Assembly (NCBI GenBank): GCA_963665845.2
Contig: OY762492.1
Coordinates: 2,432,001-2,496,000, forward strand
Reading direction: 5' to 3'
Source of the DNA: Candidatus Poribacteria bacterium
Lineage (GTDB): Bacteria; Poribacteria; WGA-4E; GCA-2687025
DNA length: 64,000 nt
Both the position numbers and the translations under genes were made by a program. Shown piece after piece: positions 23,700-24,959 of this stretch; position 1 is the first letter of the stretch, and each line of letters starts with the position of its first letter. The notes under the pieces were generated by a model that ran no database searches, was not told the DNA's origin, and saw nothing but the letters and a program-made list of their open reading frames with translations.

Positions 23700-24959
23700 A
23701 TGCATGACCGACCGCTAAGCGACTTCGACGCGACGGTTCTAGGGCAGATGGAGCATATACGCGCCATCGGCAAAAATCGGCTGCGCAACCAGAATGAGCT
23801 GGACGACTTTGTCCAAGAGACGGTCGCGCGCGCCTATGCGAACCGCGATCAGCTGCGCGACCCCGCCAAGATAAAGCAGTGGATCGCCGGCATCGCGCGA
23901 AACACGGCGAACGAGATGAACCGCGCGGCGTACCGCAGACGCGAAGAGCCGCTTCCAGACGAAGACCAGCTGCAGGACGACACGCGCGATCCGCATGAAG
24001 AACTGGAACGGGCGGAGCGGAACGAGCAGATACGCGCCGCGATGAACAGGCTGAACCCGATCGACCGCGACCTGCTGCAGGGGCGGTATATGGAGGAGGA
24101 GTCGTATGCCGATCTTCAGGAGCGGCATGGGCTTTCCTACTCGGCGGTCGGGTTTCGGCTGCATCGCGCAAAGCGCCGTCTTCGGAAGTTGTTGACCGGA
24201 ATGAAGGTCGCGTTGGCATTGGCGCTCGCCAACATGAAACGAACAGCATTTGGAGGAGTGCTTATCATGACCAAAACGACCAAGATCGTTCTCGGCGTCG
24301 CGTCCGCCATCATTCTCGCCCTGCTGGGCGGGTACCTGTGGGTCGAATACGGCGCACCATCGGACGACTCGAAGCCTGGGCTGACGGTTGAAGAGCGCGG
24401 GCTGACGGTTGAAGATCAGTCGCCGATCTTCAAGCAGAAATCTGCTGAAACGCCAAAGCAAACCGCCGAAGAAACCTCTGCGCCGGAGCGGCAAGAGAAA
24501 ACGCGCGTTTTTGAAGATTCGATCGCTTCTGAAAAGTCTGCCGCCCCGTCTGACGACAGCGAAAGCGTCGGCGCAACGCAGCCCGACGCCCTGCAAACCG
24601 CTCCGCAAGACCCGTTCACCGTCGAACTTCAGGAGGGGGTCCGCGAGTTTAAGGAGGTGTACCAGCGTCTTGTTGAATTGCATCCAGGTCCGAGGGCAAC
24701 TTACATCGCAGCTCTGCATAATGAAGTTGTCGACAACATGGCGGAATACAATGAGGAGCTGCAAGATCAAAACTTGGAGAGCGCGGAACGCGCCGCCAGA
24801 CTTGCCGCCCGCCTCATCGAGACCTCGCAACGGCTGGAGCCGCAGTACACCGCGATGCTGGCCAAAATACACCCTGAAGAAAAGAAAACATACGCTCAAT
24901 TCATGAAAAACAACACGCCCCGAAAACTGTTCGTTTTTCTCGGGATGCTGCCAGAATAA
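23700..24959 (+). CDS. ECF sigma factor fused to TM, acidic stalk and helical domain (type C)
   Basis: Sigma domain nearly identical to 22214; external domain closest to 8991..9656. Confidence 0.9.
   Translation: MHDRPLSDFDATVLGQMEHIRAIGKNRLRNQNELDDFVQETVARAYANRDQLRDPAKIKQWIAGIARNTANEMNRAAYRRREEPLPDEDQLQDDTRDPHEELERAERNEQIRAAMNRLNPIDRDLLQGRYMEEESYADLQERHGLSYSAVGFRLHRAKRRLRKLLTGMKVALALALANMKRTAFGGVLIMTKTTKIVLGVASAIILALLGGYLWVEYGAPSDDSKPGLTVEERGLTVEDQSPIFKQKSAETPKQTAEETSAPERQEKTRVFEDSIASEKSAAPSDDSESVGATQPDALQTAPQDPFTVELQEGVREFKEVYQRLVELHPGPRATYIAALHNEVVDNMAEYNEELQDQNLESAERAARLAARLIETSQRLEPQYTAMLAKIHPEEKKTYAQFMKNNTPRKLFVFLGMLPE

What the first reader, a model, noticed from the sequence alone, without database searches (positions are those of the whole stretch)
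24361..24959. Sigma fusion 2 carries an external domain apparently swapped with the distant array, with a duplicated junction
Seen: the C-terminal domain of 23700..24959 (DPFTVELQEGVREFKE..NEVVDNMAEYNEELQDQNLESAERAARLAARL..PRKLFVFLG) is far closer to 8991..9656 (..NEVVDSVAEYNEELQGQNLERAERAAKLAARL..PRKLFTLLG) than to its neighbour 22214. Its stalk resembles type B stalks. At the switch point GGGCTGACGGTTGAAGA is tandemly duplicated with 21-nt period (24378, 24399; GLTVEER-GLTVEDQ). Inference: recombination or gene conversion at the shared GL.VE(E/D)QSP box exchanges sensor cassettes between sigma-less and sigma-fused genes.
Basis: partly seen in the sequence, partly recalled or inferred. Interest (0 to 1): 0.7.

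Follow-up and report, generated by a model that had tools for sequence, protein, structure and literature searches.

The report
Sigma-sensor gene with a borrowed tail
In a sponge-associated bacterium, a gene that fuses a transcription sigma factor to a membrane anchor carries an outer part matching a separate array of sigma-less membrane genes; it is a real, old hybrid, likely made by ordinary recombination between gene copies rather than by a programmed switch.

Summary
Observation confirmed. Gene 23700-24959 (ECF sigma + membrane helix + acidic stalk + helical domain; relatives are titled Ca. Poribacteria) matches neighbour 22214 up to 24410-24435, then the minus-strand sigma-less array: domain 80.5% nt to 8991 versus 39% to 22214. 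Contigs of two other studies bridge the junction and a sister genome has the same hybrid, so it is no assembly artefact. Head and tail trees conflict (AU p 2e-104).

The interpretation needs correcting. The exchange looks one-way, old (dS 0.30, about the species split) and recurrent: 16 of 33 MTK-type heads carry array-type tails, 0 of 38 array heads carry the reverse. The 21-nt duplication is two copies of the head's own box and is absent from 11 of those 16 hybrids: likely slippage, not a recombination scar. Sigma heads are also being homogenised. No recombinase is near.

The fusions also keep a Shine-Dalgarno plus in-frame start before the membrane helix (49 of 76 versus 31 of 1684 controls); the scan noted this before on other DNA. 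Closest print: tail shuffling in planctomycete ECF fusions. A new variant of a known kind; the signal sensed is unidentified.

The parts
23700..24959 (+). Hybrid gene: ECF sigma factor fused to membrane helix, acidic stalk and helical domain (419 aa)
23700..24266 (+). Sigma head: region 2 (aa 20-75), region 4 (aa 109-161), then a helix running on to about aa 183; 90.8% nt to gene 22214
24252..24269 (+). GGAGG (24252-24256) and in-frame ATG (24267): candidate internal start; the sigma-less genes 25108 and 26015 begin at the equivalent Met
24273..24350 (+). Predicted membrane helix (aa 192-217) of the MTK head type, basic residues before it
24373..24414 (+). Tandem duplication of a 21-nt unit (19 of 21 identical), both copies of the MTK head type
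24410..24435 (+). Recombination breakpoint interval, in the shared (E/D)QSP.I box
   Evidence: MaxChi, 0 of 2000 permutations
24436..24608 (+). Acidic, predicted disordered stalk of the array type; closest to 8313 (82.0% nt)
24609..24959 (+). All-helical outer domain, 80.5% nt to 8991; family found in 2 of 176 genomes of the phylum, both in this genus
8991..9656 (-). Sigma-less array gene (MRL head) with the same domain type
6958..8975 (-). Three further sigma-less array genes (8313, 7615, 6958): like heads and stalks, diverged domains
22214..23590 (+). Neighbouring sigma fusion with the same head, another stalk and domain; GGAGG 22766-22770, in-frame ATG 22781
25108..26845 (+). Two sigma-less genes with MTK heads (25108-25929, 26015-26845)

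Best explanation
The gene is a real hybrid of a sigma-plus-membrane-helix head and a stalk-plus-domain tail of the sigma-less array type, likely made by one-way homologous recombination (gene conversion or unequal crossing-over) between gene copies at the short box they share. It is one of several such hybrids in a genus-specific family whose segments (sigma, helix, stalk, domain) have separate histories. SHOWN: mosaic structure, breakpoint, tree conflict, presence in other strains and a sister genome, recent homogenising of sigma heads, other hybrids with other tails. INFERRED: the mechanism is general recombination without a dedicated enzyme; the copy went from array to fusion gene; the 21-nt duplication came later by slipped-strand mispairing; the protein works like IutY, a sigma held at the membrane and freed by proteolysis when the outer domain is perturbed, so a new tail gives the same sigma a new input; the internal start makes a second, sigma-less product like the array proteins.
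For: Breakpoint 24410-24435, 0 of 2000 permutations. Head tree splits 33 MTK from 37 MRL rows with one change (SH-aLRT 100); the domain tree needs 7 changes for the MRL label, at least 5 forced by well-supported branches. AU tests on 30 rows reject all MTK rows as one clade (p 2e-104), 23700 with 22214 (p 0.004) and a single origin of the array-tailed MTK rows (p 3e-7). Other hybrids: 8313-type domains on sigma heads (P0007, P0009, P0010), an 8991-type domain on a sigma-less MTK head (G001 L021:9727, P0006), a third type (L021 gene 3, P0008, P0011); three G001 hybrids break in the same box. G001 sigma paralogues with unlike tails differ at 1 of 90 four-fold sites, dS 0.06-0.08, against a between-genome median dS of 0.285 (59 pairs). 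In G001 the first fusion follows DNA that in this genome precedes another sigma fusion 1.27 Mb away. Only two tyrosine recombinases, both over 600 kb away, and no serine recombinase. Site-2 protease (M50) genes are present.
Against: The box is short and only about 70% identical between head types, a poor substrate for general recombination. The stalk tree leaves 14 hybrids in one weakly supported group (SH-aLRT 87), so the box junction may have formed only once or twice and later changes may have used the longer conserved stretch at the stalk end. A rooted tree does not settle direction in the 8991 clade (4 MTK, 3 MRL rows). The tail of 23700 differs from its G001 orthologue at only 3 of 75 four-fold sites (dS 0.07), far below the genome pair's range (minimum 0.15), so the tail probably passed between lineages and G001 does not prove the hybrid predates the split. 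AU groups were named after the tree was seen, segments are short (44-120 columns) and no mixture model was used. The genome is 90% complete. No expression, proteolysis or ligand data.
Confidence: 0.68

Rival explanations
1. Reverse direction: the sigma-fused gene with this tail is the older form, and array gene 8991 got its domain from it, keeping or gaining an MRL head by conversion within the array.
For: The 8991 clade holds more MTK than MRL rows (8 versus 4) and its root is open. The stalk of 23700 is not closest to 8991, as expected if only the domain moved.
Against: The stalk of 23700 is of array type, so a head-to-stalk junction is needed anyway. In the 8313 clade MTK rows nest among MRL rows (P0007 with P0046, 96/92). 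The array holds more domain types that have no MTK form (7615, 6958, P0030, the distant copy).
Confidence: 0.15
2. Programmed or actively variable cassette exchange: the box is a recombination site at which tails are swapped or inverted in living populations, as in a shufflon; the two arrays face opposite ways 12.5 kb apart.
For: Breakpoints of several hybrids fall in the same box. Opposite orientation in the window. One contig in run X7 joins a single-box head to an array-type stalk (22909 to 24417).
Against: No recombinase near. The box is only about 70% alike between head types. 0 of 38 reciprocal products. In G001 the two arrays lie on different contigs with other neighbours. Donor and recipient differ by dS 0.30. 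Contigs of X1, X3, X5 and X7 all give the window's arrangement; G001 shows that separate single-box hybrid genes exist, which explains the X7 joint.
Confidence: 0.07
3. Fortuitous insertion as proposed for Planctomycetes: a duplicated sigma head landed in frame in a copy of an array gene without homology at the joint.
For: Proposed for conserved sigma heads with unlike tails in PMC7671368 (section 12, part 1 read). G001 has a sigma fusion (L023) among genes whose orthologues here have no such gene among the 11 found.
Against: The joint lies inside a motif shared by both parents, in register, in several hybrids; chance insertion would not do that.
Confidence: 0.07
4. Assembly chimera made by a repeat at the box.
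For: The 14-mer core of the box occurs 5 times in the locus. Runs X1 and X3 may be the source sample.
Against: Contigs of two other studies bridge duplication and breakpoint with their own differences (X5: 24259-24581, 18 other letters, 2 gaps; X7: 24268-24772, 19 other letters, no gap). G001 and four further database proteins have the same hybrid at 84-95% identity.
Confidence: 0.01

Closest known systems
Planctomycete ECF sigma factors with shuffled C-terminal extensions (PMC7671368; saw passages and section 12 part 1 of 2)
   Same: Recently duplicated, highly conserved sigma2/sigma4 heads with poorly conserved tails; head and tail trees disagree; tails have relatives that are not sigma factors.
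   Different: Another phylum. There the tails are largely unrelated and chance insertion is proposed; here the tails are one homologous family, the sigma-less relative sits in the same genome, and the joint is in register in a shared box behind the membrane helix, not behind sigma4.
IutY of Pseudomonas putida (ECF243), hybrid sigma/anti-sigma (PMC5411451, abstract seen; PMC8999054, passages seen)
   Same: Cytosolic ECF sigma, one membrane helix and an outer domain in one chain; site-2 protease genes exist in this genome.
   Different: The outer domain here has no Pfam or NCBIfam match and is all-helical; release by Prc/RseP and an inducing ligand are untested; the passages I saw report no paralogue shuffling or internal start for IutY.
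ECF57 (Planctomycetes) and ECF48/52/53 (Actinobacteria) membrane-fused ECF groups (PMC7826278 supplement passages; PMC8999054 passages)
   Same: ECF sigma with a C-terminal extension that holds membrane helices.
   Different: No cysteine at all in 23700 or 22214, so neither the ECF57 cysteine pair nor a cysteine zinc finger; no WD40 repeat; other phylum.
Sensor-domain shuffling in lineage-specific expansions of histidine kinases (PMC1630713, passages seen)
   Same: Paralogue expansion with a conserved output domain and new input combinations, without a dedicated enzyme.
   Different: Output is a sigma factor; breakpoints and donors can be traced here at nucleotide level.

Membership tests
ECF (group 4) sigma factor | Sigma regions 2 and 4 only | tested here: met
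   Sigma70_r2 29.5 bits (cut-off 24) and Sigma70_r4_2 41.4 (25.7), no region 1 or 3 hit; TIGR02937 70.6 bits (42.9)
IutY-type hybrid sigma/anti-sigma | Sigma, membrane helix and outer domain in one chain | tested here: met
   One ORF; helix aa 192-217 and outer helical domain predicted; outer location inferred from charge pattern
IutY-type hybrid sigma/anti-sigma | FecR-like anti-sigma domain (ECF243 is listed among FecR-regulated groups) | tested here: not met
   No Pfam match beyond sigma regions at E 0.05
IutY-type hybrid sigma/anti-sigma | Signal-dependent release of sigma by Prc and RseP | not testable with these tools
   M50 proteases present; cleavage needs an experiment
ECF57 | Conserved cysteine pair in sigma2 and sigma4 | tested here: not met
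   0 cysteines; feature
ECF57 | Placement by ECF group profile or tree | not testable with these tools
   No ECF group models on hand
ECF48/52/53 | Zinc-finger domain in the extension; Actinobacteria | tested here: not met
   0 cysteines; relatives titled Ca. Poribacteria
Planctomycete-type tail shuffling (PMC7671368) | Conserved sigma heads, incongruent head and tail trees | tested here: met
Planctomycete-type tail shuffling (PMC7671368) | Tails unrelated to each other, gained by chance insertion | tested here: not met
   Tails align as one family and join in register at a shared box
Shufflon / site-specific invertible locus (features recalled, no call) | Recombinase gene at the locus | tested here: not met
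   PF00589 hits at C1:1.58 and 1.85 Mb only, PF00239 none; other recombinase families not searched; genome 90% complete
Shufflon / site-specific invertible locus (features recalled, no call) | Near-identical inverted sites and reciprocal products | tested here: not met
   Box about 70% alike between head types; 0 of 38 MRL rows with the reverse tail
Shufflon / site-specific invertible locus (features recalled, no call) | Alternative arrangements within one population | tested here: inconclusive
   Only assembled contigs were served, which drop rare variants
Four-helix-bundle ligand-binding sensor domains | Fold match standing above unrelated helical bundles | tested here: inconclusive
   Best Z 8.0, rmsd 9.1, 106 aligned (a BAR domain); McpS Z 7.0, rmsd 3.7, 93 aligned, tied with many unrelated bundles

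The most novel reading that the evidence does not exclude
Poribacteria of this genus run a mix-and-match signalling kit: near-identical sigma heads are kept uniform by conversion while outer domains are drawn again and again from a reservoir array of sigma-less membrane proteins and even pass between species, and each fusion gene, through a conserved internal start, makes both the tethered sigma and a free sensor that competes with it, so that input specificity is diversified under selection in the sponge host.
Probability: 0.25. Interest if true: 0.72.

Novelty: new variant of a known kind. Interest (0 to 1): 0.45.

Why it matters
Tail shuffling in ECF fusions was inferred for Planctomycetes from trees, with chance insertion as the proposed cause. 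This locus gives a case where the relative of the tail lies in the same genome and the joint can be placed within 25 bases, which favours homologous recombination and makes the question testable. If the outer domains sense host or neighbour molecules, the family is a candidate route by which a sponge symbiont retunes transcription. The internal start, if translated, would add a one-gene, two-protein form of sigma control. Without function or expression data the core result remains paralogue mosaicism, which is common.

Tried and rejected
Assembly chimera: rejected. Duplication as a joint of the two parents' boxes: rejected, both copies are head-type; a contig of run X5 reads the second unit as EPGLTVEE, closer still to a plain repeat (loose end at 8852). 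Reciprocal swap: none in 38 rows. Metagenome scans: 353 pattern matches, none confirmed, with the domain alignment; 3 distant sigma loci only with the full alignment. Domain identity: no Pfam or NCBIfam family, no Foldseek match at E 0.001, only generic helical bundles by VIA-align, no usable Atlas hit; these show neither novelty nor absence. Profile search of 1.84 billion representatives gave 41 hits; P0059-P0095 were not added to the trees and their origin was not checked. Homodimer prediction of the domain: no answer, score 0.01. Rooting with tandem-domain genes did not settle direction; the outgroup was not one clade. The upstream motif of the sigma-less MTK genes has 4 and 5 genome matches for two patterns, no clear regulon. 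A search for the 16S 3' end by a recalled motif gave one hit that I could not confirm as rRNA, so pairing with this organism's anti-SD is untested. Literature: no paper held Poribacteria + ECF sigma factor + transmembrane; listings showed no title on this family or on internal starts in sigma fusions; 'Poribacteria' and 'internal start' occur 0 times in the held, cut supplement of PMC7826278. Subscription papers and bioRxiv supplements were not searchable, so absence from print is not shown.

Full report
SETTING. The window lies at C1:2432001-2496000 of a 3.98-Mb genome, 90% complete. Its closest relatives in the genome collection and one named protein hit are titled Candidatus Poribacteria; runs holding the gene include sponge metagenomes (X7 was laid). 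Two arrays share a family of membrane proteins. On the minus strand, four sigma-less genes (6958-9656) begin MRL, then a hydrophobic helix, a GL.(V/I)E(E/D)QSP box, an acidic stalk and a helical domain. On the plus strand, two ECF sigma fusions (22214, 23700) and two sigma-less genes (25108, 26015) have a different helix head beginning MTKTTK.

Gene 23700 is 90.8% identical to 22214 in the sigma part and 83.8% in the helix part, but 35.1% in the stalk and 39.3% in the domain; against 8991 the figures are 42.2% (helix), 71.5% (stalk) and 80.5% (domain). MaxChi places the switch in 24410-24435, with 0 of 2000 permutations as high. The 17-mer occurs at 24378 and 24399 only; the 21-nt units agree at 19 of 21. 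The stalk is closest to 8313 (82.0%), so the tail itself may be mosaic.

IT IS NOT AN ASSEMBLY ERROR. Contigs of runs X1 and X3 cover 24265-25074 without a difference, but may be the source sample. Contigs of two other studies bridge duplication and breakpoint with their own substitutions (X5 18 and 2 gaps, X7 19 and none). In X7 a separate 8991-like gene is also present. The same-genus genome G001 has the hybrid at 87% identity in the same position, and P0001, P0002, P0004, P0005 are further orthologues.

SEGMENT TREES CONFLICT. I pooled window, G001 and database proteins: 71 rows after dropping 7 duplicates, 2 partial proteins and 1 without a start motif; P0038 lacks a stalk and is in the domain tree only. 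The head tree separates 33 MTK from 37 MRL rows with one change. In the domain tree 16 of 33 MTK rows lie on the side that holds all 38 MRL rows (branch support 94/92, just under the star), 17 lie apart, and the MRL label needs 7 changes, at least 5 forced. AU tests on a 30-row subset reject all MTK rows as a clade (p 2e-104), 23700 with 22214 (p 0.004) and one origin of the array-tailed MTK rows (p 3e-7); the groups were named after the first tree was seen, and segments are short. The stalk tree, however, leaves 14 hybrids in one weak group: the junction at the box may have formed only once or twice, with later domain changes in the longer conserved stalk end, where identity to all array genes is highest (83-90% in 24570-24629).

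No MRL head carries a 22214- or 25108-type tail (0 of 38), so this is copying, not swapping. The duplication is in 5 of 33 MTK heads, all orthologues of 23700, and missing from the other 11 hybrids, including orthologue P0002. Both copies carry head-type bases. The unit begins and ends with the same few bases, which fits slipped-strand duplication (inference). The event is old: domain dS to 8991 is 0.30, like 8991 to its own G001 orthologue (0.30) and the genome pair's median of 0.285 over 59 gene pairs.

WHAT MOVES NOW. In G001 three sigma fusions with unlike tails have sigma parts at dS 0.06-0.08 (1 of 90 four-fold sites for one pair), and the AU test rejects grouping the two orthologous sigma parts (p 0.005): heads were homogenised after the split. 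Conversely the tail of 23700 differs from its G001 orthologue at only 3 of 75 four-fold sites, below all 59 baseline pairs, which suggests transfer of the tail between lineages; so G001 shows spread, not necessarily age. G001 also has two more hybrids at this locus and its two arrays on different contigs with other neighbours. No tyrosine recombinase lies within 600 kb and no serine recombinase was found. Direction within the 8991 clade is unresolved.

THE PROTEIN. Models give sigma helices, a helix at aa 192-217, a low-confidence stalk and a confident all-helical domain. The domain has no family match, and fold searches return only generic bundles. It was found in 2 of 176 genomes of the phylum, both in this genus. 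By architecture it resembles IutY, freed by Prc and RseP (PMC5411451, abstract; PMC8999054, passages); M50 proteases are encoded. That working is inferred, and the signal is unidentified.

A SECOND FEATURE. The GG...M motif before the helix is written GGAGG, spacer, ATG (24252-24269). Among 76 fused ORFs from this genome and fetched relatives (76 of 84 sigma ORFs found; relatives were picked from the best hits, so kin are not independent), 49 have GGAGG plus an in-frame start 5-13 bases on in the junction window, against 31 of 1684 control windows of the same ORFs. Of 53 rows with the motif, 49 use GGA for the first glycine (background 13-28% by genus), and all 7 rows with valine in place of methionine use GTG. 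The signal is weaker in genus g5 (9 of 23 rows have the motif). Genes 25108 and 26015 start at this Met. I found this before looking at earlier notes; the scan had noted the same on other genomes. It suggests a second, sigma-less product, or a relic of a fusion kept by selection; translation is untested.

KNOWN KINDS. PMC7671368 (section 12, part 1) reports conserved sigma heads with incongruent tails in Planctomycetes and proposes chance insertion. PMC1630713 (passages) reports sensor shuffling in kinase expansions. ECF57 and ECF48/52/53 fail the cysteine tests. Searches found nothing on this family in print, within the library's limits.

VERDICT. A real, old, one-way hybrid in a family under repeated paralogue recombination; a new variant of a known kind. 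Interest 0.45.

Noticed in passing
window 24252-24269 and 22766-22783; loci L003-L029, L046-L085: Conserved GGAGG plus in-frame ATG/GTG before the membrane helix of sigma fusions across several Poribacteria families (49 of 76 versus 31 of 1684 controls); candidate internal start. The scan noted it before on other genomes.
   Followed up: yes
window 328-6968, minus strand: Six more genes carry one or two copies of the same helical domain with an N-terminal hydrophobic stretch and a C-terminal membrane helix; copy number and order differ in G001.
   Followed up: partly
window 3111-3939 and 5149-5977: 829-base duplication at 99.2% identity, joining the start of gene 2453 to the end of gene 3948 in the short gene 4980: a very recent hybrid in the same family, or an assembly repeat.
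   Followed up: no
window 25050-25107 and 25957-26014; L021 before 9727 and 10547: Conserved upstream element (TGTATC, spacer, CT(C/A)TAT) before the sigma-less MTK genes, shaped like an ECF promoter; few other genome matches.
   Followed up: partly
P0038: MRL head joined directly to an 8991-type domain with box and stalk deleted.
   Followed up: no
P0011, P0008 versus L021 gene 3: Same domain type under three sigma heads: a divergent one, one switched in its first third to the common type, and one wholly of the common type; looks like conversion tracts of different length.
   Followed up: partly
window 21990-22045 and many intergenic places (3616-3817, 14962-15152, 16236-16535): Abundant short palindromic repeats; summed contig depth above 60,000 at 21974-22147 in run X1.
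   Followed up: no
window 15237-16199: ORF that looks like an IS1595-type transposase (label recalled, not tested), between the two arrays.
   Followed up: no
G000 C1:1715994-1726880: A second cluster of five sigma fusions with the same helix and box but unrelated outer domains.
   Followed up: partly
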